Of a stretch of 58,532 nucleotides of DNA, positions 1,686 through 58,532 are shown piece by piece (positions within the stretch are counted from its first letter, which is position 1; each line of letters opens with the position of its first letter). The notes beneath the pieces are model-generated. The model was not told the DNA's origin. It ran no database searches and saw nothing but the letters and a program-made list of their open reading frames with translations. The position numbers were made by a program, and so were the translations under genes. The stretch comes from Nemertoderma westbladi (taxonomy: Eukaryota; Animalia; Xenacoelomorpha), in contig JAUCBJ010007802.1 in assembly GCA_032718475.1 (NCBI GenBank), forward strand, positions 1 through 58,532, written 5' to 3'.

Positions 1686-2375
1686 GGGTAATTCCATGTC
1701 AAATCATCCAGAATTTTTAACTTTTGTAACCCACCCTCTCAGAATTTCGTGAAAATTTCAGGGATTCAATACCAATATGTAACTAAGAGTTGTTGAAAAT
1801 TTTAGGTCAATCCCTCCAGGGAATCAAAAGTTATAGCATTTCAATGCGGGCTACATTTACGGCTATCGCGACTAAGATGACGCTTTCGCGGGTGAGACGT
1901 TATGGCCTTTTTTGGTCATAGGACTATATGTATGTACCTAATAGTCACAAAATTGAGTGCCTAGAAGTATTTTTCGATCCTGAGTCTGAAAATAAAGTCA
2001 GTTTTCAACGTAAGATGCACCTTGCTCTGATATGGTCAAGAATTGATCATCTTTGGCTTCGCGGAGACCTAGAAACTTTGATTGGCAATAACCTTTGCTG
2101 CTTTCGGTGAATCTGCTTGAAATTTTGTGCACACACTCCCTGGGTGGACGATGGCATTTGGTAAAAAAATTGTTTTTGTACTCTGAGATGCTCTGATTTT
2201 ATTAAGGATTTTCACTTTTGCTTATCCGCTAGACCGCTAGGTGTTTCCGTTTCTTCACTTGCCCATTAGGAGTCACTATTACTTGATATTTACTGTCCAG
2301 ATGCCATGTGAGGGAGGTGGGTGACATCAAACTAATCAAAAAAACTATAATTAATATAATTATATAACATGATGG
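1686..2375 (+). repeat. Left terminal inverted repeat of the Sola2-type element
   Basis: Reverse complement of ~5560-6237. Near-identical over ~1725-2110 and more diverged inward; the inner boundary is approximate. Confidence 0.9.
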
Positions 2376-2782
2376 ATGATTTAGAATATACACTGTACAC
2401 AGGCCTGGTAGCCAAATCTCTCTATAATAATACTATATCCACTGTGATCAGTTTCTTGGCTCACCCATTATTTCATCATTTTCTCTCAAATTTAGCTTAG
2501 TAGCTCGAGAAAACTGAACCAGAAAGGCATGGACTGCAAACTCTGACCACATTAGTTCAAGTTATACTGTATGTCCTAGGCAGTTTACATTTAGGCAAAT
2601 ACACATATTTTAATCAATCAATATTGTTTCAATATACAGTAGTGTAAGGTTGTCAGTAAAAGAAAAGCAGAGAACACTCCATGTCCTCTCACTCTCATTC
2701 GTTCCTTGATATTCCTGTACACCTGTAGGCCTATGTTTTTCTCTTGTTATTATTATTGACTGATTATTATACTGTAATAAAG

Positions 2783-5483: not shown

Positions 5484-5559
5484 TCTTAAACTATACTGTA
5501 TTATTATCTATATCTATAAGCATTATATTATAGAGTTATTGGGCAATATATATAATATT

Positions 5560-6237
5560 AATCATCATGTTAAATAATTATTTTATAGTTTTATGATTAC
5601 TTTAATGTCACCCACCTCCTTCACATGGAATCTGGGAACTAAATATCAAGCAATAGTGACTCCTAATGCGTGAGCGAAGAAACCGAAGCGCTTAGCGGTC
5701 TAGCGGATAAGCAAAGTGAAAAGTTTTAATAAAATTAGAACATCTCAGAGTACAAAAACAATTTTTTTACCAAATGCCATCGTCCACCCAGGGAGTGTGT
5801 GCACGAAATATCAAGCCAGTTCACCGAAAGCAGCAAAGGTTATTGCCAATCAAAGTTTCTAGGTCTCCGCGAAGCCAAAGATGATCAATTCTTGACCATA
5901 TCAGAGCAAGGTGCATCTTACGTTGAAAACTGACTTTATTTTCAGACTCAGGATCGAAAAATACTTCTAGGCTACTCAATTTTGTGACTATTAGGTACAT
6001 ACATATAGTCCTATGACCAAAAAAGGCCATAACGTCTCACCCGCGAAAGCGTCATCTTAGTCGCGATAGCCGTAAATGTAGCCCGCATTGAAATGCTATA
6101 ACTTTTGATTCCCTGGAGGGATTGACCTAAAATTTTCAACAACTCTTAGTTACATATTGGTATTCAATCCCTGAAATTTTCACGAAATTCTGAGAGGGTG
6201 GGTTACATGGCCTGGATGACTTGACAAGGAATTACCC
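5560..6237 (-). repeat. Right terminal inverted repeat of the Sola2-type element
   Basis: Inverted copy of 1686-~2375. Confidence 0.9.
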
Positions 6238-6709
6238 ATATCTCCTTCCTCCTCTTTTCTCCCTTCATCGATCGACCAATCATACTGGTATCGTGGTATG
6301 AATCATACCGCTTCCTAATAAACCTCCCCACCCTTTACTGTTAATCTGGATGCCTATATTCGTGTCCGCATCTCCTGTCCATATACCATTGTGTTGGTAT
6401 TTATAATAGCAACACCCATCTCTTTGTCGTTGATTACATAATCAACCACCGATAATTTCCTTAGGTCCACGACCCGATATAAGGACTAAAAGGATACGCG
6501 GCTAATCTGTGAACAACTGGTACCATTGTGTGTCATAAATCTGGTTGTTCACCTCCCTTAATAATTGGGGATAAATTAATTTGGAGATAATCTTCGAATG
6601 ACATAATCCTCCTACTGAGATCGTATTTTAAACCTTGTTGAATGTGTCATAGGTTTTCCTTGCCCTCTCCCATCGATGGCGGAAAACATGTTAGGCGTGC
6701 AACAGGAAT

Positions 6710-8485
6710 ATGGAGAACATTCCCTATCCTTTCGTGGATACTCAGCTGATAGCGCCTTGGGCCGAAGGCCGAGGTTTCTTTCGCACCATGTATGCTAATG
6801 TGTCTAGCAACATTACAAAGGTGCAACGAACTTCCATCGGACATCTTGCCTTTCAGGAATACGGGTGGAATTTCAAGGTCGGAAATCCCATCAACTATCA
6901 ACAAGTATACGGAGACCATTATTCTCGATTATACTTTGACGGACCATTAACCGCACCTGGCGCCGTGTATAGCTTCATGAGTGTTCCACTCCGACCCTCC
7001 TTAGCTATCTACACGATCTTCGAAAACGCCGCACTTTCCGGTTGGCTAGCCGATGTGTGCAGTCGTACTATACGCGCCCATCCATTAATCCTTGGAACCA
7101 AACTAGCTAAGCTAGATGAACATAATAAATTCATCCGCTTTGAATGTTTCCGACGGTTTTTAACCCCGTTTCGCAACGTGGATAGCCAATTCAAAGACCG
7201 CGCTTTGACCAAGCTCAGCTTAAGAGACTCAGCTGCGGAGAAGTTGGATAGCGCTGGATTCGCTATTTTCCGAGACATTTGTGTGATAAACCTGCACTCC
7301 TCGGTTATCCAAAGACCTCGGATCCCCACCGGTTATTCTGTCGTGGAAATTCAGACGGTAGGTCCATTTGAGGAGACGGCCATGCCTACCTCAACTATAC
7401 AAGGGGAAGACGAACCCATATGTTTAGAATCGGAAGAGATTCAGCCCCCCACGGCTCGGAGTAGTGATAGTGACTATCTATTGGAATGGTATCAAGGTCC
7501 ACAGTGTCTTACTGCGTATGATTATCGCCATGCCAATTATGTTTCTCGACAACGTTGTCGGCTGTGCGCATCGAGAGACCATATTACGTCTATGGACACC
7601 AACGATCTTTGTTCCTATTTCCACGAGCAACCGTCGATGGAAATCTATTGTGCATATTGTCGGCTTAATAATTTGCACATTTTTGCCGTCTGCCCCCAAT
7701 TTATGACTCAATGCCATCATTGTCAATTAAAAGGACACGCCAGCTTTGATTGTCCCTTTAACCATGATTTAGAGAGCGTAGATGAAATGATTGTACTACG
7801 TTATATAAGAGCTTGGGAAGCGAACGCTGATTTACATTGTGACTCACGCCATCGCTATTATCCCGGACGCGCCTATGAAGGAGTTTATGCGTTCCATCCA
7901 TATTTGTTTGCCTCCGTCGAGCAGAAATCGCGCCTATCAAGTTATGAACTATTGAAGCGCGTTGGAGAATGTATTTCAACCAAATATGTGCGTAAATTTC
8001 TCAGGAGCATTAATCCGAGTGACATCCAGTCTTACAACTTAATAAACTTTATCCGTCAAGACCCTGCCTATGGAGACTTATTCGTCAACTCACACCCTGA
8101 GTTACAAGAGGTATATCGACGGCCTTACGAGTATCGAGCCCGCGAACGCGAGTTAGAAAGAACCATTAAACCAAGGAAGTTTCTAACTGCCTATGGTCCA
8201 CCCACGGCCCTCGTTCAGACCACTCGTAAAGGACCCGTAAGAGCGGCTGTCTTGAAACGAGCTCTCAAAGCCGTTAGACCCCTCTCCCCGGACGTTGATG
8301 TCCATCAACCCGGTACTTCGACCGGCGGATATACCGATCGCAATCCCATACCTTCTGATGCAATCATATTGCACCCTTCACCCAGGAGTTATAGCCCTCC
8401 TAGTAAAGTGGCTCGCCCCAAAGAGAAAAGCACTCTTGCTAGCTTCAAAAAACTGCGTAAACGCCGTCCGCGCAAGAAAGACTAA
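6710..8485 (+). CDS. Retrotransposon cargo protein: C-terminal half of a DEDDy-like exonuclease domain plus triple Cys/His zinc module and basic tail (591 aa)
   Basis: Aligns by eye to ORF 55777..57600: FVDTQLIAPW~CIDTQTLLAW, SIGHLA...FK...YQQVYG~GIGYLA...FK...YNKIYG, YTIFE~YVVME, and YCAYC..H...VCP.....CHHCQLKGH~YCPYC..H...VCP.....CTTCGFRGH. It ends in KKLRKRRPRKKD (NLS-like) 78 bp before the LTR. Confidence 0.7.
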   Translation: MENIPYPFVDTQLIAPWAEGRGFFRTMYANVSSNITKVQRTSIGHLAFQEYGWNFKVGNPINYQQVYGDHYSRLYFDGPLTAPGAVYSFMSVPLRPSLAIYTIFENAALSGWLADVCSRTIRAHPLILGTKLAKLDEHNKFIRFECFRRFLTPFRNVDSQFKDRALTKLSLRDSAAEKLDSAGFAIFRDICVINLHSSVIQRPRIPTGYSVVEIQTVGPFEETAMPTSTIQGEDEPICLESEEIQPPTARSSDSDYLLEWYQGPQCLTAYDYRHANYVSRQRCRLCASRDHITSMDTNDLCSYFHEQPSMEIYCAYCRLNNLHIFAVCPQFMTQCHHCQLKGHASFDCPFNHDLESVDEMIVLRYIRAWEANADLHCDSRHRYYPGRAYEGVYAFHPYLFASVEQKSRLSSYELLKRVGECISTKYVRKFLRSINPSDIQSYNLINFIRQDPAYGDLFVNSHPELQEVYRRPYEYRARERELERTIKPRKFLTAYGPPTALVQTTRKGPVRAAVLKRALKAVRPLSPDVDVHQPGTSTGGYTDRNPIPSDAIILHPSPRSYSPPSKVARPKEKSTLASFKKLRKRRPRKKD

Positions 8486-8563
8486 CTGTTTAGAGTATTT
8501 TTGTATTTTAGAAACTGTGATTTTGTATATTTTATAGACTTAAATCCCATTTTCTGGGAGCGG

Positions 8564-9770
8564 TGTAAAAGCTTTTGTGGGATAACTGATACGTTTGCCT
8601 TTGCTGGCCAGTTCCCCCCCAGGCGCTGGAATACTCTAAAAAGGGTTTCCTAACTGTATATATATTCCCCTCGCCCGCAAGGTACCTTTACAGGTGTTTT
8701 AACGGACATAAAAATCATTCTGCTATATACGTGTTTTAGCGGACATGGTAAGACAAAAAACTTGTAATGCACCAACCACCTTTCACAGCTTAGCCGTGAT
8801 GATTCATATTACGACATCTAGCAGCTGGTTGCTGACATGGAAACAGCCATTGGACGCGTGGTTCTTTGTTTGGCTTGGGCCAATCAGGGCGGTTTTTCCT
8901 GTCGACGTGTAGCTTTCCTGCCGATCATAAGGAGAGTGTTCAGTCTTACTGTTTTTTCTTGATACTTTGTTGTTATTGCTGTCTAAGCCAGAAACACCGG
9001 CATTTTTGGATAGATACTGCTGTACCGTAAACTGCTTGAATTATCGAAAGTATAAACTGTTACCTAACTCATTAATCATATTGTTTGTACTGTTATTTTA
9101 CCGTCAGTTATTAATTGTAAATATTTGTTGATGGAAATATTGCTATTTGGATAATACGGATAAATCACCCAATTCCCAATTTTCTTGATAACACTACAGG
9201 TTAGAGAGACCGGCTATATATAACAATTGCGATTTATATTAATGTGGTGTGTATTGAATCCAATGTTATTTAGCAGACCCTACGTGAGTCAATTACTGCT
9301 CTCTTTATGTGTGATCAAATGTACTGACTGTCGGCAGAATAGTGTGTATGATTGTGATTGGTAACAAAGTATTTCCTAAAGAATACGCTTTATACTTCAA
9401 TCCCAAGCAGTATCGTTGCGTTTAGTATAAGTCTTAGTTCTGTTTAAATAGATAAAGCGCCACGTCCTAAAGGAACTGTTAATATTTCCCGAAAGCCAAT
9501 AATATCTGTCAGAGATTAATTATTAACGATCTATCGAATAATACATTAGGTATACACTGCAACCTTACACTGTAATAATACAATTCAAGCATCCGAATTC
9601 AGTCTCCCGGGTGTAGATCCATCGGGTGAATGATCGCGCATGGGCTGACTTCGGCTAATGTTTTGCGTATTAGCATAAAATATTGTCGTATGCTAAAGTG
9701 GTTTTAATTAACTAGAAGACATATAAATTTTGGCAGGTTAAACTGCTAAAGGTCTTCAAAAGCGCGAACA
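8564..9770 (+). repeat. 3' LTR of element A (1207 bp)
   Basis: Starts TGTAAAAGCTT after the PPT and ends AGCGCGAACA. It is a diverged homolog of the element B LTR (TGTAAAAGCTT...AGCGCGTACA). Confidence 0.85.
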
Positions 9771-12268: not shown

Positions 12269-13545
12269 TGTACGCGCTTTTATAGACCTTCAGCAGTTTA
12301 ACCTGCCGAAATTTATATGTCTTTATTGATAAACTGCCTTTTATAAGATGACAAGATTTAATACAAAAACAAACCAAAAACATTAGCCGAAGCCAGTCCA
12401 TGCGCGTCCAAATGACCCGTTTATAACACCGGGAGACTGGATTCGTGGGCTTAAATTTATTTGCGGTCAAGCCTACTGTATTATTCGATTGATTACTAAT
12501 ATATAATCTCTGACAAATATTATTCACTTTCGGGAAATATTAGCAGTTCCTTTTAGGACGTGGCGCTCTACCTATGTAAACAGAGTTATGACTGATACTA
12601 CACACAACGATATGGCTTAAATTTCAAGCATAGGGCGCATTCTTTAGGAATGCTTTATTATCAGATCCAATCACTTTACAATCACGCACGCTACCGGTAA
12701 CGCACAACACTGCTCACTGATATGCCGACAGTTACTGACTTTGATCAGGTATAAAGAGATATGCACTGGACTCAGGTAGTGTCTGTCAAACAACATTAGA
12801 TTCACTACAAACACAATAATAAAGTCGCAATTGTTGTACATAACCTTTCTCTCTAACCTGTAGTGTATCAAAGATATTGGGAAAATGTGGGTTGATTATT
12901 GATATTCTTCAACTAATAACATCCAATTATACTGATACAAATTACAAACAGTAAAAGCAGTATGACGGTAGGTTAAGATATAATTAGATTGCATTGAATT
13001 AAGATCGATATAAAGTGATATGAATCGAGTTGATTTGTTAATAGCGATAATAGCTATGCTTTCTATAATTTAGCCTACTAATGTTCTTACAAAAGGGCAG
13101 AAACATTGCGTCATTCCAGCCGATCTTCAGGCAGTATGGAACGACATAAACACTGAGTTTGGGAGCTGCTGTAGGTATCTCTTCAAGGAAAACGCAAATC
13201 GCCCTGATTGGTTGTTAGACCAAAACAAAGGAACCAGGAGTCCAATGAGAGCTCCCTCCACGTCATCATCCAGCTGGGAGATGTCGTAATCAGAATCCTT
13301 CCCTTGACATAGTGACAGTGAAATGCCGCATTGCGGGGTTTGTACCCTGCTACGTCCGCATAAAGCACACATTCAGAAGAATCTATTTTATGTCCGTTAA
13401 AAACACTTATACAGCACCCCGAGGGCTAGGGGATCAAATTATATCTGTAAACGCTTTTACAGCAGGTTTCAGAGTATTTTAGCGTATGGGGGGAAAACTG
13501 GATCGCGGGGCGAAGGACCAGTTGCATCCCACAGAAGCTTTTACA
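12269..13545 (-). repeat. 3' LTR of element B
   Basis: Direct repeat of 23054-24330; no differences noticed by eye. The PPT (GGGAGCGG on -) is at 13546-13553. Confidence 0.95.
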
Positions 13546-16541: not shown

Positions 16542-19500
16542 TTACGTGATGGAGTCCCTAGATATTTGTCGAATTAGGGAAGTGGTCGTAGGAAGAGTAT
16601 CTTGCCTTCCATGGTTTCCGGACAGTTTTCGGTCTCTTCCCGGTAAACCTAAACGACCAGCTGGGCGATTAGGCCGTCGTGATATTTCCTCCGCTCCCTT
16701 GGCCTGTCTAATCTCCGCCGAGGCAAGACGAGGAGGCCATTCTTCTTCTTCTTTACTTAGGGAGTCGGGTCCACCCAACCAGCCGGGAGTATCTATCCGT
16801 TCTTGAGGAGTTACTCCTCTGGAAGCGATGTCGGCTAGATTAATCGTCTCGGGTCGATGTCTCCATTGATCTACATTGGAGTTGATATCGTCGCTATCTG
16901 AGGAGTATGTTGTTCCCTCAGTGGCTTCGTCCACCTCACTGCTCTCCTCTTCCCAAGCTTTTACTTGAAGTATCCGGTCTTGTGGCAGTCTTTCTTCAAG
17001 GGTTCTGCGGGAAGGGCCAGTGAAGTACCAACCTACTCGAGTTCTTACCGCATAAGGTTGTAATGGCTGCGGTTGAGCAGGCCGTTTCTCTAACGTCTCG
17101 AGCGCCTCATGCGCGTTTTGGCCGATAAGGATTTGTACTCCAGGATAATCAGTTTGGAATCGAGGTATTCCCAAATGTTGGATGTTCTCGTCCTCGTCCC
17201 AGTCATAAGGTTCTACTTGAGTAGTAGCGAAGTTCTTTATTGCCACCATTTTTACTGACTCTATACTTTGTTCCCCTAATTTATCCTGTGGAGTGGACAA
17301 TGCGCCGAGATAATAATCTGCCATTAAGGTAGATTTCCAAACCTGCATAATTCCGGACATATTTAACTTAGTTCGGAATTTGGGTTGTCCAGCAAAAATA
17401 TCCTCGGCTAACTCCTTGTCGATGAATGTTCCGGTGCTACCTGAGTCAAGGAGGGCGTTCACTATGTAACTTTTGTTGGGACCGTGAACTCTTACCTGGA
17501 CTACCGGAAATTCTCGTATTCCTATGTTGGATGTTGGAGTTTTCCGAGATGGTTGCTTGTCCAAGGAGGTTGATGGAAACTCCGTGTCGTTATCCTTTTC
17601 GTACGTAAGTGCTCGATACACTGCGGTGTTTATTAGATAACAGGATTCGTTGGCATCAGAGAATTCGTCAGTATAGAATCCTTCCCACTCAGAACTTTGG
17701 TCAGTGTCGTTCACATCACTGAATTGGACATGTAATTTGGGCTCACTTACCTGACTCGGGTGGTTTCGTTCGAATTCTGTGTGCAATAAGCTATGATGTT
17801 TCGCGCCGCACTTAGCACACCTTGCGTCAGAGTAACAGGTTCGCCGCTGGTGTCCGCGTCTGAGACAGTTATAACACAACCGCTTATCCCACAGGACTCC
17901 ACGTCTATCTGCCAGGGATTTCTTTTGGAATTCCGCACACGCACTCAAACGGTGGGGCCCGTCGCACAGCGCACATTTTGGTTTGATGTTACTCACTTTA
18001 ACTTGGGCAATGCTGTGCACTTTCGCTCGTTCTTCGGGCTTGCTTACCTGAATTCCTTTGGGAGACTGAGGAGGGGTCTTGGTAAGCTTGTCTCTCCTAT
18101 CATTGGTTCGAGGCTGGTATTTACTTACGTCTCTCGGGGTTTTGTGGTCATCGTAGGATCTTGCTGTGTCTTTCCCGCTGTCCTCTTCATGGGAGGTCTG
18201 GCTTTCGCCGTCGTCAGTATAACATACTGGTGTTACCCTTCTCCTAGAAACGGGTTTCTCACTTACCTTATCTTCCGATGTTTTTTCCCTGGATTGCTTT
18301 ATTAATTGTAGTTTGACCTCACGGTCTAGGAATGACATGAGATCCGCCATGGTGGGGCTCCGTCGTTGTTGCTCCATCATATACAACACTTTCTTGTCCC
18401 AGCGAGTACATACTCCACCCTTTGGTAAAGTAGAGACTATGGCTCCAATAACCATGGAACTCTGATATTCATGGGACTTACCTAACCAATCCAATTGCCT
18501 ACAGATTTCTTGAATCTCATCGGAAAACTCTATAATCTCGTTACTAAGGAACTTTCGGGGAGCTACCAGTTTTGCATACAAATACTTAGCGATATTATCC
18601 TTATTACCATACCTGGTGTTTAATGTATCCCAGACTTGTCTTAGTCCATTTGGATGTCCAATAAACTTCAACGCCATTAACTTGGGGGGTCCTTCCAAAC
18701 ATTTGATGAGGAATCTCAGTTTCTCTCCGCTAGATAGTACAGAGTTCTGTATGCTATCTTCATAATATTCTTTAAAAGGTAACCATTTCATCTCATCACC
18801 GTTGAATTTGACAATTTCTCCCACTTTGACCGCTTGGCGGGCTTCTGTTCTAGCCATCTGACGCGTAAAGCTTTCTTGGGCCATCGTGTTATTTAATATC
18901 GAATTATCGGTATATAAATTTTGCGGATTATTATCAGGTCTATAGGGAATATCATTACTCACAGGTTTGTAATCTCCTTTAATAGGGTTTACTATAGGAG
19001 TTTCTACATCGCTAGCAGTATATATGCGTATAGGCGACACACCTTGCGCATGATACACTTCAGACCTAGCAGGTTGACACAGGGTTACAGGGGGTGTTTC
19101 TACTTTACTAGCAGTATATATGCGTGTAGGCGACACACCTCGCGCATGATACACTTCAGACCTAGCAGGTTGACACAGGGTTACAGGGGGTGTTGGTATT
19201 CCCCTTTGTATATTGACTAATTTGTCGCGCTCTAATGCGATATTTTGCTGCACTTCTTGCAGCTCTATCCTACTATCCCTTACGGTTCCCTTGAGTTGGT
19301 AGACAGTCCCTTCTAAGTCCCGGATCTGTTGCGAGGAACAGTCCCGCTGTTCCCGCATTTGACCGAGCAAGAGACTCATCTCCCGCCGTCCCTTCTCCAC
19401 CCACTCGACCGCCGAAGCGGGAGTCGCCAACGTTGTAGCGGGCCGTATCGGGGCGACGGGAGACAGATCTTGTATGTCTCTCTCGGTCTCCAGAACCGGG

Positions 19501-20891
19501 GCTTGGGCTGCTCCACCAGGTGCCGTTAGTTTAATAGTACTGTGTAAAGGGAATTTGGTAGTAGGTTTGGGGAGTACAGGGGTCTCTCTCACCGAAGTGG
19601 TGTTTTCTAGAACAGGCCTAATTATTTCCGGCTCATCTACTATAGTAGGGAGTCTGGTAATGGTAATAGTTTGGTCTGTGGGTTCTGTACTCGCTACTGA
19701 AGTGCTAGATATTTGTCTTCTAACAGCTGGAGGCAAATCAGGCAATCTCTGACGTGGAGACATTCTTTTACGCCGACTGAGACGAGATCTATTTCCTCCA
19801 CCTTCAGGGTCGGTAGTGTCTCCTTCCTCCGATGATGTATATCCTTGGCGTTTCGAAGTAGATCGACTCAGTATCTTCATTCGACTTTCTGTGAGGCGTT
19901 TATCGATGTAATCATGTGTCTCTTGCAGATTGGCCAACTCTAGTTGGGCAATTTCTTCAGACGCTCTCTTTTCTGCTTCTACCGCCGCTGCCTTTCTTTC
20001 GGCCTCTGCTGCTGCCACTGCAGTCTTTCTTTCTGCCTCTGCTTCCGCTGCTACCGCTTTTGCTGCTTTTCGATCTGCCTCTGCTTCCGCTGCTGCCGCT
20101 GCTGCTGCTTTTCGATCTGCCTCTGCTTCCGCTGCAGCTGCTTTTCGATCTGCCTCTGCTTCCGCTGCTGCCGCTGCTACTGCTTTTCGATCTTCTATTC
20201 GTTTTTTCTGGACTTGTGCTTCCTGGGCTCTAGCGATGCGTCTTTCCTCATCAAATTTAGCTTGATCTTTAGCTAACATCTCAGCATCGAGGTCGTCCAA
20301 CACACGCTTAGCTCCTGCACTATTAGGTGAAAATCCATGCAGTCTTCTTCTCAACTCCTTGTCTCCTATGAATCGCTGATAATCTGACAAATAGGTATCA
20401 ATTGCATCTCTCTTTTGCGGTCCCTCTGTTGATGTTAATTCGCTTTCCACTTCGCTTTCCACTTCGCTTTCTACTTGAGAAGAAGGGGCGTCAGTTGATT
20501 CTCCAAAGGTTGGCCGCTCATCACAAGCCGTATCCACCATTTTCGCTCCGCGTTCGGGCGTCCGCTCAACAGTCTCCGAACTACTGGAGCTATCGGGTCG
20601 CTGGGGACTAGGTTCGTGATCAGGATGTTGCTGCGATAGGACAGCTTCCTCTAGGTTCCGTTTTACCTGGGCCCGAGTGCCTATGATAGACCTATGGTGG
20701 ATTAGCCTAGGGTCTGATACTACTACTGTAGGGCTAGGGATGACCTTGCTTACAGTAGGAGGGGACTTGGACTTCGGTCTCAGACGTTCTATACTCTTAG
20801 CTGAGTCCCAGATCTTTTTAAGACCCTGTCTAACACTCGTTCTAGCACTTTCTAAGAAACTATCTGACAGTGATTGGGTTTGTTCAGCCAT
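16542..20891 (-). CDS. BEL/Pao Gag-protease polyprotein fused to the RNase H C-terminal remnant (1449 aa); RT and integrase missing
   Basis: Capsid-like block KFNGDEMKW..F...EKLRFL..CLEG...L..RYG (DUF1759-like). Three BEL-type knuckles: CALCDGPH....C, CYNCLRRGH....C and CAKCGAKHHSLLH. Protease motif ALLDSGST...ILIG...TRVGW. This is followed directly by QWRH...NLADIASRG...W..GP..L...EWP. Confidence 0.9.
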   Translation of the reverse strand: MAEQTQSLSDSFLESARTSVRQGLKKIWDSAKSIERLRPKSKSPPTVSKVIPSPTVVVSDPRLIHHRSIIGTRAQVKRNLEEAVLSQQHPDHEPSPQRPDSSSSSETVERTPERGAKMVDTACDERPTFGESTDAPSSQVESEVESEVESELTSTEGPQKRDAIDTYLSDYQRFIGDKELRRRLHGFSPNSAGAKRVLDDLDAEMLAKDQAKFDEERRIARAQEAQVQKKRIEDRKAVAAAAAEAEADRKAAAAEAEADRKAAAAAAAEAEADRKAAKAVAAEAEAERKTAVAAAEAERKAAAVEAEKRASEEIAQLELANLQETHDYIDKRLTESRMKILSRSTSKRQGYTSSEEGDTTDPEGGGNRSRLSRRKRMSPRQRLPDLPPAVRRQISSTSVASTEPTDQTITITRLPTIVDEPEIIRPVLENTTSVRETPVLPKPTTKFPLHSTIKLTAPGGAAQAPVLETERDIQDLSPVAPIRPATTLATPASAVEWVEKGRREMSLLLGQMREQRDCSSQQIRDLEGTVYQLKGTVRDSRIELQEVQQNIALERDKLVNIQRGIPTPPVTLCQPARSEVYHARGVSPTRIYTASKVETPPVTLCQPARSEVYHAQGVSPIRIYTASDVETPIVNPIKGDYKPVSNDIPYRPDNNPQNLYTDNSILNNTMAQESFTRQMARTEARQAVKVGEIVKFNGDEMKWLPFKEYYEDSIQNSVLSSGEKLRFLIKCLEGPPKLMALKFIGHPNGLRQVWDTLNTRYGNKDNIAKYLYAKLVAPRKFLSNEIIEFSDEIQEICRQLDWLGKSHEYQSSMVIGAIVSTLPKGGVCTRWDKKVLYMMEQQRRSPTMADLMSFLDREVKLQLIKQSREKTSEDKVSEKPVSRRRVTPVCYTDDGESQTSHEEDSGKDTARSYDDHKTPRDVSKYQPRTNDRRDKLTKTPPQSPKGIQVSKPEERAKVHSIAQVKVSNIKPKCALCDGPHRLSACAEFQKKSLADRRGVLWDKRLCYNCLRRGHQRRTCYSDARCAKCGAKHHSLLHTEFERNHPSQVSEPKLHVQFSDVNDTDQSSEWEGFYTDEFSDANESCYLINTAVYRALTYEKDNDTEFPSTSLDKQPSRKTPTSNIGIREFPVVQVRVHGPNKSYIVNALLDSGSTGTFIDKELAEDIFAGQPKFRTKLNMSGIMQVWKSTLMADYYLGALSTPQDKLGEQSIESVKMVAIKNFATTQVEPYDWDEDENIQHLGIPRFQTDYPGVQILIGQNAHEALETLEKRPAQPQPLQPYAVRTRVGWYFTGPSRRTLEERLPQDRILQVKAWEEESSEVDEATEGTTYSSDSDDINSNVDQWRHRPETINLADIASRGVTPQERIDTPGWLGGPDSLSKEEEEWPPRLASAEIRQAKGAEEISRRPNRPAGRLGLPGRDRKLSGNHGRQDTLPTTTSLIRQISRDSIT
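19005..19197. repeat. In-frame tandem duplication in gag (TPPVTLCQPARSEVYHA.GVSP.RIYTAS x2)
   Basis: Two near-identical copies with a 99-bp period. Confidence 0.85.
19960..20190. repeat. Ala/Glu-rich coding minisatellite in gag (AAAEAEADRK-type units)
   Basis: About 6 variable-length units of tttcgatctgcctctgcttccgctgc. Confidence 0.85.
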
Positions 20892-22249
20892 GTTTGATTG
20901 TACAGTTGAATGCCTACTGCTATAGTTACAGTTAAAGCAAGTCTAGTAATTCAGTAAGACTGTTGGCCTAGTACCGGTAATTAATTGCAATATATTAGAA
21001 TACCGGTATACACTTATAGTATATATAAGTATAACAGACTAGATTTGTCACAGAGTACCGATATATAATTTTAGCACAAATATATATAAATATATAATAG
21101 GCCTATCGTGAATACCGGTATACAGCTGACACTTATAGTATATATAAGTATAATTATTACTAGAATTAATTACAGAATACCGGTATGATTTCAGCTCAAA
21201 TTTATAGAAATAAATATAATAAACCTATTAGAGATACCGGTATATCAATTATTTAGGATAATTGAATTTCTGAAATTATAAGTTACTTAGTTACTTGAGT
21301 TTACTTTGTTACCGTTATGCAAGCAGTAGTCCAACTGATATTGTGACCTACTTGTTGTATGGCAGGCCTACTGATTTATAAATCTTTGGAGTTGATTTAT
21401 AATATATATATATACCCTGATAAGGGATTTCGTTACAAGATTGAAATAGGTGTTACTATTTCCGGCAAAATACCACTACACAGAAGCTAAGCGCTTTCAG
21501 TGAAGTACTACTTATGGGACACTAAACAGAATAATTCTACTGGCCTACGTTACTTATTTACTAGTTACTTACTATTGGTGAGATTACAATCTCTAATAAA
21601 CACACAAAACGTTACGTACAGAAAATTTTTAGGGCAATTTTACAGGGAAACTACTAACCAGTCTAACAAAGGGTTAGATCTTCTGGCTATTACAACGAAC
21701 AGGATACTACGGTATTTGAAAATAATAAGTAGAAGTAAATACTGCGTTGTCTAGATAGGAAAGTACCACCGCCTGACGACCTACAGCCGTATCGCTATAG
21801 GTACAACGTTATGTATCTACGGAGTGTTCCTACCTAGAAGTTAATTACCGCCGTCTACCAGAACGAGCGTGCCTATTAACCACTTTACAACACAATAATG
21901 CCTACACTAATTACTTTCGGAAAGCACTGTACACTAAACCCTAAATTAGGTACAGGTACTTGTAAAAACAGATAACCAGTAGTTAAATATACTTGAACAG
22001 TTAAAAGAACCACAGCATCTGCTGGAGTGACCGGGGCACTGAGTCACCAGTCTTTACCTACGCCAAGCAGCCCGTGTAGTACTGGGGTTAATTTAACTAT
22101 AACGGTATGTATAACAAACACAATTACTGTAGGAATAAACTTGGGGACATGAATGTTGCGAGTAATCGCATAAACTCTGAATAATAAATATTACGCTACC
22201 CGTACAGAATACTCAAATAAAATACAAACCGGATGCTGACAAACTACCA

Positions 22250-23053: not shown

Positions 23054-24330
23054 TGTACGCGCTTTTATAGACCTTCAGCAGTTTAACCTGCCGAAATTTA
23101 TATGTCTTTATTGATAAACTGCCTTTTATAAGATGACAAGATTTAATACAAAAACAAACCAAAAACATTAGCCGAAGCCAGTCCATGCGCGTCCAAATGA
23201 CCCGTTTATAACACCGGGAGACTGGATTCGTGGGCTTAAATTTATTTGCGGTCAAGCCTACTGTATTATTCGATTGATTACTAATATATAATCTCTGACA
23301 AATATTATTCACTTTCGGGAAATATTAGCAGTTCCTTTTAGGACGTGGCGCTCTACCTATGTAAACAGAGTTATGACTGATACTACACACAACGATATGG
23401 CTTAAATTTCAAGCATAGGGCGCATTCTTTAGGAATGCTTTATTATCAGATCCAATCACTTTACAATCACGCACGCTACCGGTAACGCACAACACTGCTC
23501 ACTGATATGCCGACAGTTACTGACTTTGATCAGGTATAAAGAGATATGCACTGGACTCAGGTAGTGTCTGTCAAACAACATTAGATTCACTACAAACACA
23601 ATAATAAAGTCGCAATTGTTGTACATAACCTTTCTCTCTAACCTGTAGTGTATCAAAGATATTGGGAAAATGTGGGTTGATTATTGATATTCTTCAACTA
23701 ATAACATCCAATTATACTGATACAAATTACAAACAGTAAAAGCAGTATGACGGTAGGTTAAGATATAATTAGATTGCATTGAATTAAGATCGATATAAAG
23801 TGATATGAATCGAGTTGATTTGTTAATAGCGATAATAGCTATGCTTTCTATAATTTAGCCTACTAATGTTCTTACAAAAGGGCAGAAACATTGCGTCATT
23901 CCAGCCGATCTTCAGGCAGTATGGAACGACATAAACACTGAGTTTGGGAGCTGCTGTAGGTATCTCTTCAAGGAAAACGCAAATCGCCCTGATTGGTTGT
24001 TAGACCAAAACAAAGGAACCAGGAGTCCAATGAGAGCTCCCTCCACGTCATCATCCAGCTGGGAGATGTCGTAATCAGAATCCTTCCCTTGACATAGTGA
24101 CAGTGAAATGCCGCATTGCGGGGTTTGTACCCTGCTACGTCCGCATAAAGCACACATTCAGAAGAATCTATTTTATGTCCGTTAAAAACACTTATACAGC
24201 ACCCCGAGGGCTAGGGGATCAAATTATATCTGTAAACGCTTTTACAGCAGGTTTCAGAGTATTTTAGCGTATGGGGGGAAAACTGGATCGCGGGGCGAAG
24301 GACCAGTTGCATCCCACAGAAGCTTTTACA
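23054..24330 (-). repeat. 5' LTR of element B
   Basis: Begins TGTAAAAGCT at 24330 on the minus strand and ends GCGCGTACA at 23054. Confidence 0.95.
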
Positions 24331-44070: not shown

Positions 44071-44689
44071 CGTGGCAACGATAAACCTTTTACAGTTTTA
44101 TTATACAATAGTAACAGTAATATTCTTAATAAATAGGCGCCGATGAATTGATATCATGATAGAGGGTAGGGAATGTAATACAATATTTAACGAGGCCTAA
44201 TATTATTTAAACATAACTCACTCTGTACTGCTGTATGTACCGGTAATTAATTATATTTTATTTAAAATATCCCCTATAATTGTCCGCATTTGGGGACAAT
44301 AAATAATTTATTAACCAATATTTTCCAAAAATGCAGACATGATTTGTCCGATACACATGTAGATATTGTAGAAGAAGGTAGAAGGCCTACCGCTACGCTA
44401 CCGGGACGTAAAGCCGGATAATGTCATATGCAATTGTGCATTGCAGCGTTGTCAGGTTCACGAATCTACTATGTAGTGTACTACACGTACTGACGAACTA
44501 ATAGTAGTTTATTACCTTGTATAATGAAATAATTTAATTATTGGCCCGGCATGTAGGGAGTGGCGAGGCGACTACAGCAACCTGCCTTCCCTTTTTGGTA
44601 GGGCCTAGGCAGCTAGGCCTATGGGAAGTTGTCAAGTAAACGTTAATCGCAATGTGAATTATTTAAGATAGTACCTATGTGGCGTGCAT

Positions 44690-53691: not shown

Positions 53692-53762
53692 ATACCGTAT
53701 AATAAAGTTTACCGTATAATAAAGTTTACCGTATAATCTAGTTTACCGTTTAATAAAGTGTT
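53692..53762. repeat. 17-bp short tandem repeat (TACCGTATAATAAAGTT, ~4 copies)
   Basis: Two perfect and two degenerate copies. Confidence 0.75.
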
Positions 53763-54159
53763 GCCGTTATCCCTACACCAGGGGGGAAAAACGCCGATGC
53801 TGGAGACGTGACTTAACAGACCACCGAGCCCCGGCCAGTCACCGGATATTGATTGTGGGGAGGGAATATTTTCTGAGATGCAAGTTTGCGGTTGATAAAA
53901 AGCTGCATTAGTTGGATATACTCTTTAATGTAACTTCCTATAGTTGAAACCCGTTCAACATCATTGAAACTTGATTAAGAATAATTTTGGGCTTCCCCAA
54001 ATCAATATACACCAAATATTCACAATAATTATACACGATAATATAAATCCCTACAGTATATTATTTAATAACCCACTGTTTGCTCAGAATTTTAGCCTAC
54101 CTAATGTTCTCCAGATTTTCCCTCGGTCCCAGTCTTAGTGCCGTAGTGTCGGTGTCGGT

Positions 54160-55060
54160 CGACCCTGTCGCGTGTCCGTTCCACCCCTCACGAACCCCGA
54201 AGGGAACGATCATCGAGAACCAGCACGGCTTGGCTAAGGGTCGGTCCAGTCGGTAGACTCTGTCGCGTATCCGTACCACCCCTCTCGAACCCCGAAGGGT
54301 TCGGTCATCGAGAACCAGTACGGCTTGGCTAGGAGTCTGTCGTGTCGGTGGACCCGTTCGCGTGTCCGTTCCACCCCTCACGAACCCCGAAGGGTTCGAT
54401 CATCGAGAACCAGAACGGCTTGGCTAGGGGTCCGTCAGTTCATCACAGAAACCCAACCACCTAGGCTTTCCGAGTCCGTTTCAGGCTCGTAGTCGCTTCG
54501 GCAGCCGAGAAACTGCTCCGAACAGTCGGTAGGCCAGTAGAGTCTAGTCGAGTCTAGTCCTTTGTCTTTCGACCCCATCGCGTGTCCGTTCCACCCCTCA
54601 CGAACCCCGAAGGGAACGATCATCGAGAACCAGTACGGCTTGGCTAAGGGGTCTGTCGTCGGTTCCCGTCGCAAATCCCAGTACAAGCAGTCAGCGTTCC
54701 GAGTTCTTTTCAGTCTCGTAGTAGCTGCCGTTGACCAGAGACCGCTAAGGGCAGTTCTCGTCAAACCCGTCCTGTGGCCAGCCCTTTCGCATGTCCGTCC
54801 CACCCCTCACGAACCCCGAAGGGATCGGTCATCGAGAACCAGTACGGCTTAGGTCAGGGGGCAGTCGTTAGTTGGCCACCCGTTCGCGTGTCCGCTCCAC
54901 CCCTCACGAACCCCGAAGGGAACGATCATCGAGAACCAGAACGGCTTGGCTACTAAGGGGCCGTCGGTGCCCGTCGCAAATCCCTGACACAAGCAGTCAG
55001 CGGTCCGAGTTCTTTTCAGTCTCGTAATGGCTGCTGTTGGCCAGGGACCGCTAAGGGCAG
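54160..55060 (-). ncRNA. Array of structured RNA hairpins: 6 type-I (K-turn/UUCG) and 2 type-II
   Basis: Type-I copies at 54160-54243, 54255-54338, 54350-54433, 54571-54653, 54781-54862 and 54874-54962, with covarying closing stems. Type-II copies at ~54665-54754 and ~54969-55060. RNA function is inferred. Confidence 0.55.
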
Positions 55061-55535
55061 TCCTTGTCCTTTAGGCCTGGCGCATTACCAAATCCACCCC
55101 TACAGGCAGCAGGAAGTTGGCCAGGGCCTAATAGTACTCAGGCTAACCTGAATACTGCTTGCATTTTCCATCCCCCCCTGGCCCTTATAACTATGAAATT
55201 ATTCCCGTACCCTGTAAGTTGCCCCAAAGTTCGCCCATAAATCGCCCCCAGTTTCTTGAATGTGCCCAAAACCCATGGTCCCGCACCCAGTAGTAATATC
55301 GGAATAATCAATTTTAAATAAATACAAAAATATTCAACTCGCGTTATGGAAAGTTGAAATACCGCGAACAGTCCCCCCCAATGACCTTCGTGAAGTCTGT
55401 CGGTCGATTGAGTTTGCGTAGGTCATTCCCAATATAAAAAACCCAAATTTAATATTGCATAGTTTTTAATTAATTTGGCCTAGAGTTTGTATAAAAATAA
55501 ATGTTCGATAAATGTTCCTGGAATATCCCGATCCA

Positions 55536-58114
55536 CTATTTCTTTCTCTGATACGCCTTTCGTCTCTTCGCCCGTCGACTCTCATCGATCGCTATGGCTG
55601 GTAGAGGAGCGTCAACATCCATCGTGAGTAACGCTTCGGCTTGTCTCCTGGCGGCTCTTCCTTTCGAAGGCATCGGGATCATGTCGGTTCGTCTCTCCAA
55701 CTCAGATTTGCGTGCCTCTAGGAACCATTCTCCGTCACCGAACTCCTCTTTATACGAGTATAATCGTCTAATGACTTCAAATGGACCGAATAATCCGGCG
55801 CTCAGTAGCAGATCCACGTAATGGAAAGGTAGCGTGGCCGACGTGTGGAGGCGTTCCGGGAAGGAGAAATATCCGCACGCCATCTCCTGCGCGATATTCC
55901 GAGCGTTTCTCCGAACAGGTCTTTAAGTGGCTGTTTGCGTATGTCTCAAACATGACCATATTGCCCATAGCGGTAACGTCTTTGGTTGGACATTTGATAT
56001 AGCAGCGGGGGCTAGAGGAATGTCCACGGAAACCGCACGTGGTGCAGAGGTTATAAAGGATCGGGCAGACGGAAACGTCGTGGCCCGATGTCGCGCAGTA
56101 TGGGCAATAGAGTATACCGAGGAGCTGGAGGCATGAATCGGTAACCCGATTCCTTCTGCTGCGTGGGCACTGCTCCGAACCGCAGTCGCCGCATACCTCC
56201 AACTGCATCTCTCGACCAGGAAATATCGGAATCGGGACGCCGACGTAGTATTCGAGTCGTCGGTCGCTCTTCGGAATATTCTCGGTGGTCGGTAGCCCGC
56301 GGAATGCTAGGCTTTTGCGTAATAGGTTCTCGCTCCGATAACCTTCTTTGTGTCCCGCTGGTCTCAACTCGGATGACCGTTTCTGGCGGTGGATCCATTC
56401 AGTTTGCTCGGCGTACCAACGGGTTAGTCGCATAGGGTCCTGAGGAACGGCGGGTGTAGTAGCCACCGCTGGTCGGCGAAGAGGTGCCGGGGTTTTCGAC
56501 GGAGGGATACCGAGGAGATCGTCGGGGGTCGGCGCATCGCTGGGGCCCTCCTCGATCAGTATCGCTGCGCGGGTCCGTTGGTGGCTGGTACTCGGAATCT
56601 CCGACGACCAATCTTCGCCACCCGGGAAAGGATACGGGGATAACCGTTGGCATATGTCGCCGAAGTCGCTCAATGCAGCTGTAGTGGCTACCTCCCTCGC
56701 GGGGCTACCGGAGCCGCGTGGGGTGTAAACGCCTGCTCTCTTCATCGGTTCGGCCGAGGCAACCCGTTTGGCGGCCGGTCCATACGCGGCCTCCGGCTCG
56801 AGTTGTCGCTTCGGGGTGGAGAGTAGAACACCCTCGTTTAGCCATATCTCTTCCCCTTCCGAGGAGATCAGAGGCTCCTCCGCACCGAGAAGTTCGGTAA
56901 TCGTAGGGATGTCGTAAGGTCCGCTCTCGTCCCAGGAATCGATAACGGCGGGTGTTTTCGATTCTCCCGGTGTAATGTTCTCGACCGCTTTAAACGCGTG
57001 GTTTATAACCTCGTTCCAGTCGTAGTCGACGAAGGAAAGGGGGACCGCCGTAATAAGGTTATCGAGAGTTTTACAGATAAACTTAGCGACGGTGTAGCAC
57101 TCCATAACGACGTAAACGTAGTTCCGTCGATCAGGATTCTCCCACCTTTGGTGTATCGTCCACTTCCGATCAACGTCCTTCCATCGACCCTCTCGCTCGC
57201 TCTTTATTTCCAATCCCGGGTATCCACCGTATATTTTATTATAGTCCCGGAATTTCTGGGGTTTGAAGTCGATACCGCCGTTGAGCACAGCGAGGTAGCC
57301 GATCCCGGATTTCGTCGGTCTCACCTCTTGGAATCCTCGCATGAACTCGGCGAATCGTAACCAGGCTAGTAGCGTTTGAGTGTCGATGCAATGGCTAAGG
57401 GCGTTGAGGTCGTCTCGTCGGTTTCTTCCTGCAGGGGCGTTCGCGTAGTCGTTCCGGACGTCCGCCTTGATATCCGACCCGATTTTAATGACGTCAAAGT
57501 CGAAGAGGATCTTTTGGATTTCCGGAGGCAGCAACCAGATCGCTCCGGCTGCCTGCACTTCCTGTCTGGGTGTCGGGAATATTCGGCACACCAGTACCAA
57601 ACCGTCCAGGGTTCCGAGGACGACGACTAAGGATCGACCGTATTCTTTCGCCCCGTACTTTTCTTGGTAGTCGTCTCGGTTTTGGATAATCGATACGCGT
57701 TCCTCTCGAAGCGTTTCCCCAGTGGGCGAGGTACGTACTCTTGTCGTCGACGAAACTTTGACATCTCGCCAACGTAATCGCTTTCGAGGTGGGCGTCGCG
57801 TTTCCCTCGTTGTCGTAGATCAAACATCGGGATCTGTAGACGCTCTGCCGGAACGTTTCCCAAAACGACGAATCGTCCCCTCCGGTTGCCTTTGCGTTCC
57901 GAGTTCTTTTCAGTCTCGTACTAGCATCAGCTAACCGGAGGGCTCGTAGATTCTTAGAATCCGGTCCCTCTCGCCCGGTGAATTTAATGACTCGCACGTT
58001 CTCATTTAGCAGGGTGCTCCAATTTGTATCAAAGTCAGGGGATCCGGGTTGCGAATATTCCAGTAGATCTATCGTGTTACGTAATTCGCCGATAATTTGG
58101 CGATTTGGGTCCAT
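55536..58114 (-). pseudogene. DEDDy-like 3'-5' exonuclease + triple zinc-module cargo gene (~860 aa when two frameshifts are corrected)
   Basis: ORF 57494..58114 supplies ExoI-like LIYDNEG. The next frame supplies VVVLGTLDGLVLV, LPPEIQKILFDFDVIKIGSDIKADV (ExoII), IDTQ, GIGYLA and YVVME (ExoIII position), then CGDC/CPYC..H..CP/CTTC..GH. ORF 55536..55883 continues homology (GYFSFP ~ GVYAFHP of ORF 6710) and ends in a basic tail. The frameshifts may be real or assembly errors. Confidence 0.7.
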
Positions 58115-58532
58115 ATTTACGATTATATCCGTTACAAATTAGATCAGTTAATTATAAGTCCAGAAAGTCTGAAACTATAGCGATAGCAGAATAATTCAGT
58201 TTTTTATTTAATTCAGTTTATTAATAACATTGCTATATAGGCATCTATCATCTTATTGCTAATACATTCAGCATTTACAGTTACTATAGCTATACATAAT
58301 ATCCAACCAGTTTTTTTATGACTTTTTTGTCCTTTTCTTTTTTCTAATTCTTTTCTTTGACCTTTTTTATACCTTTTTTTGTCTTTTTTCATTTCATTAT
58401 TATTTCATCTTATTTCATTTATTTCCACGTATATTTCAACATTTAGTTCCACCATTTATTTCACATTTATTTATTTCCACATCATCATTTGGGTTTATAG
58501 CCCCCCGGCTATCATCATTGGTTATAAGCGCA

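What the first reader, a model, noticed from the sequence alone, without database searches (positions are those of the whole stretch)
55536..58114. Retrotransposon cargo gene: DEDDy-like exonuclease fused to a triple zinc module, shared by two divergent elements
Seen: ORFs 55536-58114 (-) and 6710-8485 (+) share ordered motifs (DTQ, IG.LA...FK...Y...YG, YxxxE, three Cys/His clusters, FE/WE..A..H, G.Y/F.F, basic C-terminus) despite little evident DNA similarity. Each sits immediately upstream of a PPT and an LTR (confirmed for A, candidate for C), the slot normally used by env. Known: RNase D/EXD/MUT-7-type DEDDy nucleases trim small RNAs, and DEDDy extra ORFs have been reported in some nematode and rotifer LTR elements. 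Inference: this is a conserved element-encoded RNA-binding nuclease, possibly a counter-silencing or RNA-maturation factor. I do not know this exonuclease-zinc-finger fusion as a described cargo.
Basis: partly seen in the sequence, partly recalled or inferred. Interest (0 to 1): 0.85.

Follow-up and report, generated by a model that had tools for sequence, protein, structure and literature searches.

The report
Retrotransposon-borne exonuclease with three zinc knuckles
Two many-copy jumping genes in what is likely an animal genome carry, where a retrovirus has its envelope gene, broken copies of the same extra gene, predicted to code an RNA-trimming enzyme fold joined to three zinc knuckles that likely grips and trims the element's own RNA; this is a new variant of a cargo described in rotifers, and one of the two copies keeps only half of the enzyme part.

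Summary
Partly confirmed. The two stretches are homologous at protein level only, and each lies 70-156 bases before a polypurine tract and an LTR. A 648-residue public relative has the same layout: nuclease, linker, three CCHC-type knuckles. Its low-confidence model matches only DEDD exonucleases.

Element C (three frames, two breaks) keeps four acidic active-site positions (D-E-D-E). 23 of 28 listed differences from other copies are synonymous, so it is a selected gene.

Its gene region starts at 858 and is split by a DNA transposon. It has no detectable ExoI/ExoII half. Its relative B in the window (BEL/Pao, identical LTRs) has lost both nuclease and knuckles. C's superfamily is unknown because its pol lies outside the window.

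Likely function: a trans-acting, knuckle-guided 3'-5' RNA trimmer, built like trypanosome RNase D. Activity and counter-silencing are untested. DEDDy ORF3s are known from bdelloid rotifer elements. This scan also noted an Rrp6-HRDC-knuckle ORF3 in Gypsy elements of another genome, with no sequence look-alike to this one. Verdict: new variant of a known kind, interest 0.5.

The parts
57494..58138 (-). Element C accessory gene, first frame (ATG 58114); ExoI-like D-x-E at 57814-57806
   Evidence: a block from three outside relatives picks this site, 0 of 200 shuffles reach its score; 3 of 3 listed copy differences synonymous
55777..57819 (-). Element C accessory gene, second frame (coding from about 57712 to 55915): rest of the DEDDy-like domain (ExoII-like Asp near 57462, DTQ 57384, YxxxE 57114), low-complexity linker, three Cys/His knuckles (56193-56000)
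   Evidence: nuclease part 7 of 7 and knuckle part 4 of 5 listed differences synonymous
55536..55922 (-). Element C accessory gene, third frame: G.F..P...LPF block and basic tail
   Evidence: matches the tail of P0002, 0 of 500 shuffles
55373..55379 (-). Polypurine tract of element C (G7)
   Evidence: sequence
53759..55370 (-). 3' LTR of element C, 1612 bases, TGTT...AACA, with internal 95-base repeats; single copy in the window
   Evidence: depth step at about 53740
858..1487 (+). Element A accessory gene region, front ORF (209 codons), no Pfam match; shared with element B
   Evidence: dN/dS 0.29 against B over 95 codons, Fisher p=4e-4
1686..6237 (+). DNA transposon inserted in element A (TIRs of about 690 bases, 4-base target duplication, 773-codon ORF 3162-5483); not part of the cargo
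   Evidence: other copies join across it
6238..6694 (+). Non-coding or decayed spacer where the ExoI/ExoII half would be expected (also 1488-1685); stops in all three frames
   Evidence: lower depth than its neighbours
6695..8485 (+). Element A main ORF: C-terminal half of the DEDDy-like domain (DTQ to YxxxE), linker, three knuckles, helical and basic tail
8556..8563 (+). Purine tract of element A
   Evidence: sequence; same junction in element B
8564..9770 (+). 3' LTR of element A
   Evidence: 72-75% like B's LTRs by blastn; ends checked
23054..24330 (-). Element B 5' LTR, 1277 bases, identical to the 3' LTR; 5-base target duplication
16542..20942 (-). Element B BEL/Pao gag-protease ORF; RT, RNase H and integrase are missing
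   Evidence: DUF1759 E=3e-13, aspartyl protease E=0.011, no RT hit; triple Cys-His box and LLDSG as described in PMC554778
13630..14923 (-). Element B decayed accessory gene: front and tail match A, no nuclease or knuckle match
12269..13545 (-). Element B 3' LTR

Best explanation
These are broken copies of an old accessory gene that LTR retrotransposons carry just before the 3' LTR, predicted to code a DEDDy-fold nuclease joined to three CCHC-type knuckles, which likely acts in trans as a knuckle-guided 3'-5' trimmer of the element's own RNA. Shown: the position, the homology of A, C and three public proteins, purifying selection on C including its nuclease domain, and four acidic active-site positions in C and the three relatives. 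Predicted: the DnaQ fold, from a low-confidence model of the relative P0002. Inferred by analogy with trypanosome RNase D: the knuckles hold single-stranded RNA and feed its 3' end to a two-metal site. Inferred: the substrate is element RNA (genomic RNA or primer 3' ends) and the protein is made from its own 3' message. In the A/B (BEL/Pao) lineage the nuclease half is being lost while the front ORF, the knuckles and the basic tail persist, so there the RNA-binding part is the more lasting one and the nuclease is dispensable in cis.
For: Homology. Fold: all 22 Foldseek matches at E<=0.001 are EXD2 or Egalitarian chains (16 rows shown, the rest further chains of listed entries). The 50 VIA-align rows shown are all chains with DnaQ-like domains by their titles, best Z 8.5, rmsd 4.7 over 168 residues. 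ESM Atlas puts C's own nuclease stretch with PF01612 at 0.92. Acidic quartet: D-E-D-E in C and P0002, D-E-E-E in P0003, D-E-D-D in P0004, each with the ExoIII Tyr. Selection: 23 of 28 listed differences in C at third positions (p=1.5e-7 against one third), 23 synonymous, 7 of 7 in the second-frame nuclease part. The knuckles of P0002 and of the alignment match retroviral nucleocapsid (E about 1e-4) and, weakly, trypanosome RNase D (E=0.046). In that enzyme four CCHC fingers bind the RNA and raise cleavage (PMC7797062, passages). Position.
Against: No Pfam nuclease hit in any window frame; P0002 reaches PF01612 only at E=0.2. The model is poor (mean pLDDT 37; only about residues 41-150 at 50-70), it is of a relative, and folding C alone failed (pLDDT 34). 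ExoIII has Glu in place of the canonical Asp in 4 of 5 sequences, so activity is uncertain. A lacks three of the four acidic positions. B moved recently (identical LTRs) without the gene. The best Foldseek matches include Egalitarian and EXD1; EXD1 is described as an inactive RNA binder in PMC5408684, and Egalitarian as an RNA adaptor in an abstract. The 28 differences are those in coding frames among the 40 best-supported rows of 316. No genomic context could be had for P0002-P0004, so their link to LTR elements is not shown. RNA versus DNA substrate and the identity of the substrate are not tested.
Confidence: 0.5

Rival explanations
1. Non-catalytic RNA adaptor. The fold is a nuclease relic used, with the knuckles, to bind element RNA for export, transport or packaging, as Egalitarian and EXD1 use dead DEDD domains.
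For: A keeps 596 open codons without the ExoI/ExoII half. A contig of depth 2918 in run X1 joins the front ORF in frame to the knuckles. ExoIII Asp is Glu in 4 of 5 sequences. Egalitarian and EXD1 are among the Foldseek matches. An LTR-element accessory protein for RNA export exists in Cer1, with a different architecture (PMC10309623, passages).
Against: All four sequences with a whole domain keep four acidic residues and the Tyr at 24-32% identity; one is canonical D-E-D-D-y.
Confidence: 0.25
2. Counter-silencing nuclease. The protein degrades or mis-trims host small RNAs or their precursors aimed at the element.
For: The nearest folds include small-RNA factors (EXD1, Nibbler, QIP). Both families are very abundant in reads. 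A factor acting in trans would let copies without the gene spread, as B did.
Against: Nothing here bears on small RNAs. In rotifers, DEDDy ORF3 showed no clear link to copy number, and those ORFs were themselves covered by small RNAs (PMC5408684). Mature piRNAs carry a 2'-O-methyl end that blocks many such enzymes (own knowledge).
Confidence: 0.17
3. Passive cargo or chance resemblance. A host gene fragment or Gag-like knuckles were captured and drift without function.
For: Both window copies are broken. Knuckle spacing resembles nucleocapsid in general. No Pfam support for the nuclease.
Against: Synonymous bias in C follows the frame switches. dN/dS is 0.29 and 0.18 between A and B at the two ends. 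The same two modules occur in the same order in two elements with no DNA similarity and in P0002. The third knuckle is CCHC, not the CCHH of BEL Gag.
Confidence: 0.05

Closest known systems
DEDDy-exonuclease ORF3 of bdelloid rotifer LTR retrotransposons Juno and Vesta, also in Athena/Terminon elements (Rodriguez, Kenefick, Arkhipova 2017, PMC5408684; parts 1-3 of 5 and passages read; figures and supplement not seen)
   Same: A non-env, RNase D-like DEDDy gene in the ORF3 slot of LTR elements, with no transmembrane anchor, an altered acidic motif and unknown function; gained and lost between families.
   Different: The rotifer motif is DEED, here mostly DEDE. The rotifer paper mentions only a Cys-His-Cys motif in Vesta2/5, not a three-knuckle module. 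The host element here is BEL/Pao for A/B (unknown for C). Sequence kinship could not be tested.
Trypanosoma brucei RNase D, TbRND (Gao et al., PMC7797062, passages read; PDB 7c42)
   Same: DEDD exonuclease followed by a C-terminal array of CCHC knuckles, no HRDC; found by both the fold and the knuckle searches.
   Different: A cellular guide-RNA trimming enzyme with four knuckles and a 28-residue linker. Here there are three knuckles, a linker of 150-280 low-complexity residues, an extra C-terminal block, and the gene is mobile. Likely convergent; orthology untested.
EXD2, WRN-exo, Egalitarian, EXD1, Nibbler/MUT-7, RNase D, Rrp6 (DEDDy group)
   Same: Best structural matches of the nuclease domain; PF01612 in the ESM Atlas.
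   Different: Identity 11-19%; Z values are tied within about 1, so no single donor family is indicated. None of them is element-borne.
CERV of C. elegans Cer1 (PMC10309623, passages read)
   Same: An LTR-element accessory protein with a Cys-rich motif that acts on element RNA.
   Different: Spliced from the gag region; H, M and G domains with a pseudo-GTPase fold; 'exonuclease' occurs 0 times in the paper.
Rrp6-like exonuclease-HRDC-CCHC ORF3 of Gypsy elements
   Same: DEDDy nuclease plus zinc knuckle as ORF3 of invertebrate LTR elements.
   Different: Noted with an HRDC domain and one knuckle, in Gypsy. Here Pfam shows no HRDC at E<=1, there are three knuckles, and sequence look-ups found no look-alike.

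Membership tests
DEDDy (DnaQ-like) 3'-5' exonucleases | DnaQ/RNase H-like fold | tested here: met
   Model of relative P0002 with C and A in the alignment: 22 of 22 Foldseek matches at E<=0.001 and the 50 VIA rows shown are DEDD-type; low-confidence model. C's own stretch: ESM Atlas PF01612 at 0.92.
DEDDy (DnaQ-like) 3'-5' exonucleases | ExoI D-x-E and ExoII Asp, element C | tested here: met
   DNE at 57814 (0 of 200 shuffles); KIGxxxxxD block aligned with relatives. The motif spacing is recalled from WRN/RNase D.
DEDDy (DnaQ-like) 3'-5' exonucleases | ExoI D-x-E and ExoII Asp, element A | tested here: not met
   No block above background in 1241-1682 or 6242-6740; 41 to 58 of 60 background stretches score as well.
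DEDDy (DnaQ-like) 3'-5' exonucleases | ExoIII Y-x-x-x-D | tested here: not met
   YxxxE in A, C, P0002 and P0003; YxxxD only in P0004. A conservative change whose effect is unknown.
DEDDy (DnaQ-like) 3'-5' exonucleases | Metal-dependent 3'-5' exonuclease activity | not testable with these tools
   Needs an assay.
Bdelloid DEDDy ORF3 (Juno/Vesta/Athena) | Lies between pol and the 3' LTR | tested here: inconclusive
   Just before PPT and LTR in A, B and C; after gag-protease in B; pol of A and C lies outside the window and no genome is held.
Bdelloid DEDDy ORF3 (Juno/Vesta/Athena) | DEED motif | tested here: not met
   D-E-D-E in C and P0002; the paper gives DEED.
Bdelloid DEDDy ORF3 (Juno/Vesta/Athena) | Clusters with those ORFs in a tree | not testable with these tools
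   The rotifer sequences were not returned by any search.
TbRND-type Exo-CCHC proteins | DEDD domain followed by tandem CCHC knuckles | tested here: met
   Three knuckles in P0002 (CX2CX3HX4C, CX2CX4HX4C twice); the first knuckle is irregular in A and C. Architecture only.
TbRND-type Exo-CCHC proteins | Common descent with TbRND | not tested
   Only weak matches (E=0.046 profile, Z 6.7); no tree.
Rrp6/RNase D with HRDC | HRDC domain after the nuclease | tested here: inconclusive
   No Pfam HRDC at E<=1; the model is unreliable in that region.
Retroviral env | Transmembrane anchor | tested here: not met
   Highest 19-residue hydropathy is 1.33 or less in five of six sequences; 2.08 in C falls on the nuclease beta-hairpin.
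BEL/Pao (Belpaoviridae) | Gag with DUF1759 and triple Cys-His box, LLDxG protease (element B; A by LTR kinship) | tested here: met
   A shares LTR and about 1.2 kb of internal sequence with B at 72-85%.
BEL/Pao (Belpaoviridae) | RT, RNase H, integrase | tested here: inconclusive
   Deleted in B; outside the window for A and C.
BEL/Pao (Belpaoviridae) | 18-base tRNA primer-binding site after the 5' LTR (ICTV profile PMC8742986, whole text read) | tested here: not met
   B has no TGG within 20 bases of the LTR end; its first 11 leader bases are complementary to the LTR instead.

The most novel reading that the evidence does not exclude
The A/B family is a BEL/Pao lineage that has dropped tRNA priming and primes reverse transcription from its own RNA, as fission-yeast Tf1 does (B's first 11 leader bases pair exactly with LTR positions 489-499), and the exonuclease-knuckle cargo is the element's own primer-maturation enzyme, supplied in trans to a swarm of nuclease-less copies. 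This would be a self-priming BEL/Pao element with a dedicated RNA-trimming accessory enzyme, and would give a testable job to the unexplained DEDDy ORF3s.
Probability: 0.1. Interest if true: 0.85.

Novelty: new variant of a known kind. Interest (0 to 1): 0.5.

Why it matters
Enzymatic ORF3s in LTR retrotransposons are an open puzzle. They were described in bdelloid rotifers and, in the papers I read, never assigned a function. This finding extends the DEDDy cargo to a BEL/Pao lineage and to abundant families of another animal, in a form with its own RNA-binding module and a solved cellular analogue (trypanosome RNase D) that suggests how to assay it. The family also offers a natural series: whole domain (C, P0002), half domain (A), in-frame nuclease-less form (X1 contig) and gene lost (B). 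That series could separate the catalytic from the RNA-binding role.

Tried and rejected
No whole genome is held, so the planned genome-wide tblastn, pol linkage and full dN/dS could not be run.

Word-based protein searches found nothing beyond the query: C's middle frame, alignment A2 (only P0002 itself), shorter relatives of P0002's nuclease. The exhaustive search with C's nuclease gave 3 relatives, each an unnamed ENA singleton. No loci were found in metagenome or viral contigs (could not run).

Folding C's nuclease alone failed. Pfam gave no nuclease hit. The ESM Atlas search of the knuckle region gave only zf-CCHC leads below 0.9. BFVD gave generic viral 3'-5' exonucleases and polymerases.

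No RNA holder listed; run X5 is only a guessed RNA run, so expression and splicing are open.

By eye I saw possible ExoI/ExoII remnants around A's transposon; block and profile tests did not support them, so I dropped them. The front ORFs of A and C are not alike (479 of 500 shuffles). Codon-position bias in A from read tables was weak: 6 of 12 and 3 of 5 at third positions, from 17 of the 40 rows shown, 889 not shown. CERV as a homologue was rejected on architecture. The 95-base repeat in C's LTR folds no better than shuffles (z -0.28). No tRNA or Rfam hit in the window.

Literature searches listed no paper on a DEDDy-plus-triple-knuckle cargo or on such a cargo in BEL/Pao. Subscription journals, Repbase and GyDB were not searchable, and the 2000 paper on env capture was not held.
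Full report
Setting. The window is repeat-rich eukaryotic DNA, with a MAD1-like gene, LINE remnants and satellites. BEL/Pao elements are known only from animals (PMC554778, passages), so the host is likely an animal. No assembly is held. Three LTR-element pieces matter: A (plus strand, 1-9770), B (minus strand, 24330-12269) and C (minus strand, from the window's end to 53759).

Checking the observation. A's frame 6695-8485 is open for 596 codons. C is three overlapping frames with breaks near 57712 and 55915. Public contigs differ in length from the window at both places, so those breaks are not shared by all copies. Blastp gives E=4e-7 for the knuckles and 1e-3 for the DTQ block, and 0 of 500 shuffles reach either score. 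Blastn finds nothing between the genes and nothing convincing between their LTRs (best E=0.068). Each stop codon lies 70 or 156 bases before a purine tract and TG. A's LTR is established by 72-75% identity to B's two identical LTRs. C's LTR is single, but has TGTT...AACA ends and a thousandfold depth step at its outer edge.

Relatives. An exhaustive search with C's nuclease stretch returned 3 proteins at E<=0.001 among 1.84 billion, 31-32% identical. All are unnamed ENA singletons. P0002 (648 residues) has the whole layout: nuclease, low-complexity linker, three knuckles, a short aromatic block and a basic tail. It matches C at E=3e-16 (nuclease) and 2e-8 (knuckles) and A at 4e-7 and 8e-4. A profile from P0002-P0004 alone hits C at 3.8e-23 and A at 0.0023 in the window's six frames, next best 0.53. 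So A and C belong to one family that also exists outside this genome. Whether those three relatives sit in LTR elements is unknown; four collection scans found no loci.

Fold and active site. Pfam does not recognise the domain. The ESM Atlas places C's stretch with PF01612 clusters at 0.92, with 162 of 256 features shared; shuffled proteins reach 0.9 in 4-10 of 100 cases. A model of P0002 from a five-row alignment is weak overall (pLDDT 37) and moderate over about residues 41-150. Its 22 Foldseek matches at E<=0.001 are EXD2 or Egalitarian chains. The 50 VIA-align rows shown are all chains with DnaQ-like domains by their titles, best Z 8.5. Together these predict a DEDDy fold without naming a donor family. 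C has D-x-E at 57814, picked out by a block from the relatives with 0 of 200 shuffles reaching it, the ExoII-like Asp near 57462, and YxxxE at 57114. The acidic quartet is D-E-D-E in C and P0002, D-E-E-E in P0003 and D-E-D-D in P0004. The knuckles resemble retroviral nucleocapsid. The third is CCHC, unlike the CCHH of BEL Gag.

Selection. Of the 40 best-supported differences listed between the window and other copies around C (276 not shown), 28 fall in the three frames. Of these, 23 are at third positions (p=1.5e-7) and 23 are synonymous, including 7 of 7 in the second-frame nuclease part. The bias follows the frame switches. Summed depth over C is about 2x10^4 against 16-26 in the flank for run X2. 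The tool warns that this is no copy number, but the family is plainly abundant. C is therefore a real gene kept by selection in a spreading family.

ORF A starts 14 codons before DTQ. Upstream lie a 209-codon ORF (858-1487), a spacer, a DNA transposon (1686-6237) that other copies lack, and more spacer. The spacers have stops in every frame (at least 3 in 65 and 7 in 151 codons), and no ExoI, hairpin or ExoII block scores above background. Depth over 6271-6600 is about 11,000 in X2 against 157,000-289,000 over 6601-8250, so most copies differ there or lack it. One X1 contig joins 1220 to 7404 in frame, skipping the nuclease remnant. B shares A's front ORF (dN/dS 0.29) and tail (0.18) but has neither module and is frameshifted. 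Yet its LTRs are identical, so it moved recently without RT, integrase or this gene, which implies help in trans. B's gag-protease marks the A/B family as BEL/Pao. C's type cannot be told. Whether other A-type copies keep a whole nuclease, or splice the two ORFs, is open.

How it likely works. The closest working model is trypanosome RNase D, where tandem CCHC fingers hold single-stranded RNA and raise cleavage by a two-metal DEDD site (PMC7797062, passages). It turned up in both the knuckle and the fold searches. I infer a trans-acting, knuckle-guided 3'-5' trimmer of element RNA (0.5). The rivals are a non-catalytic RNA adaptor (0.25, and the better reading for family A), a counter-silencing nuclease (0.17; no data here bear on it) and neutral cargo (0.05). 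Activity, substrate and expression are all untested.

A side lead. B has no tRNA-type primer site, although the ICTV profile gives one for the family (PMC8742986, whole text). Its first 11 leader bases pair exactly with LTR positions 489-499; 1 of 2000 shuffles and 1 of 146 other leader positions do as well. This was noticed after the fact and rests on one copy. It suggests self-priming as in Tf1 (recalled; title only seen). A link to the nuclease is conjecture and is kept as the novel case (0.1).

Comparison with what is known. DEDDy ORF3s were described in bdelloid Juno and Vesta elements and in Terminons, with a DEED motif and no assigned function (PMC5408684, parts 1-3 of 5 and passages; figures and supplement not seen, and its alignments may bear on kinship). 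Reviews repeat this (PMC6431247, PMC6338049, PMC5718144; passages). Passages of PMC3118150, PMC554778, PMC4131045 and PMC11662393 showed no exonuclease cargo in BEL/Pao. Searches listed no paper on this fusion as element cargo. Subscription papers and Repbase were out of reach, and I recall without verification an RNase D-like domain reported in nematode Cer elements, which would lower the novelty. Four earlier notes of this scan describe an Rrp6-HRDC-knuckle ORF3 in Gypsy elements of another genome (unchecked). No sequence look-alike was found.

Verdict. This is a real, selected accessory gene family of LTR elements with a predicted DEDDy domain and three knuckles. It works like a TbRND-type enzyme by inference, but fails strict membership tests for canonical DEDDy (ExoIII Glu; A lacks ExoI/II) and for the rotifer ORF3 (motif, element type). 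New variant of a known kind; interest 0.5.

Noticed in passing
window 23043-23053 and 23832-23842 (element B, minus strand): B has no tRNA-type primer site. The first 11 bases after its 5' LTR are the exact complement of LTR positions 489-499, downstream of the CCAAT boxes. 1 of 2000 shuffled LTRs and 1 of 146 other leader positions do as well. A post-hoc observation; a lead for Tf1-like self-priming in a BEL/Pao element. Tf1 details are recalled; only the title of Levin 1995 was seen, in a reference list. The collinear stretch in A's LTR (9037-9078) differs at several positions.
   Followed up: partly
window 57894-57920, 54694-54720, 55000-55026: A 27-base motif occurs in C's coding region and twice in C's LTR (0, 0 and 1 mismatches; none expected by chance). 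A possible cis element or template-switch scar.
   Followed up: partly
window 12269-24330 (minus strand): Element B is a very young non-autonomous BEL/Pao copy: identical 1277-base LTRs, 5-base target duplication, 2.1-kb leader, intact gag-protease, no RT or integrase, decayed accessory gene.
   Followed up: yes
window 1686-6237: Low-copy DNA transposon with long TIRs starting GGG, a 4-base target duplication and a 773-codon ORF with no Pfam hit. It resembles Sola2 from memory; not tested.
   Followed up: partly
window 1220 and 7404: In run X1 one 256-base contig of depth 2918 joins A's front ORF to the stretch before the knuckles, in frame by arithmetic. Not listed in runs X2, X4 or X5.
   Followed up: partly
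window 54145-55070: Six copies of a 95-base unit and three of a second unit inside C's LTR; no unusual folding.
   Followed up: partly
window 28901-31066 (-), 49299-50648 (+): Uninterrupted host ORFs: a MAD1-like mitotic checkpoint protein (PF05557, E=2e-66) and a pyridoxal-dependent decarboxylase (PF02784, E=4e-35). The decarboxylase's origin was not checked.
   Followed up: no
window 36512-38131 and 42511-44097 (-), with 38852-42362: Two long coiled-coil ORFs on one strand, separated by a 3.5-kb array of a 22-base repeat; possibly exons of one gene.
   Followed up: no
window 24627-26793, 32159-35039, 45320-47209 (-): Three LINE-type RT/endonuclease remnants; B lies next to the 3' end of the first.
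   Followed up: no
window 51319-52195: 17 copies of a 52-base unit at 98% identity.
   Followed up: no
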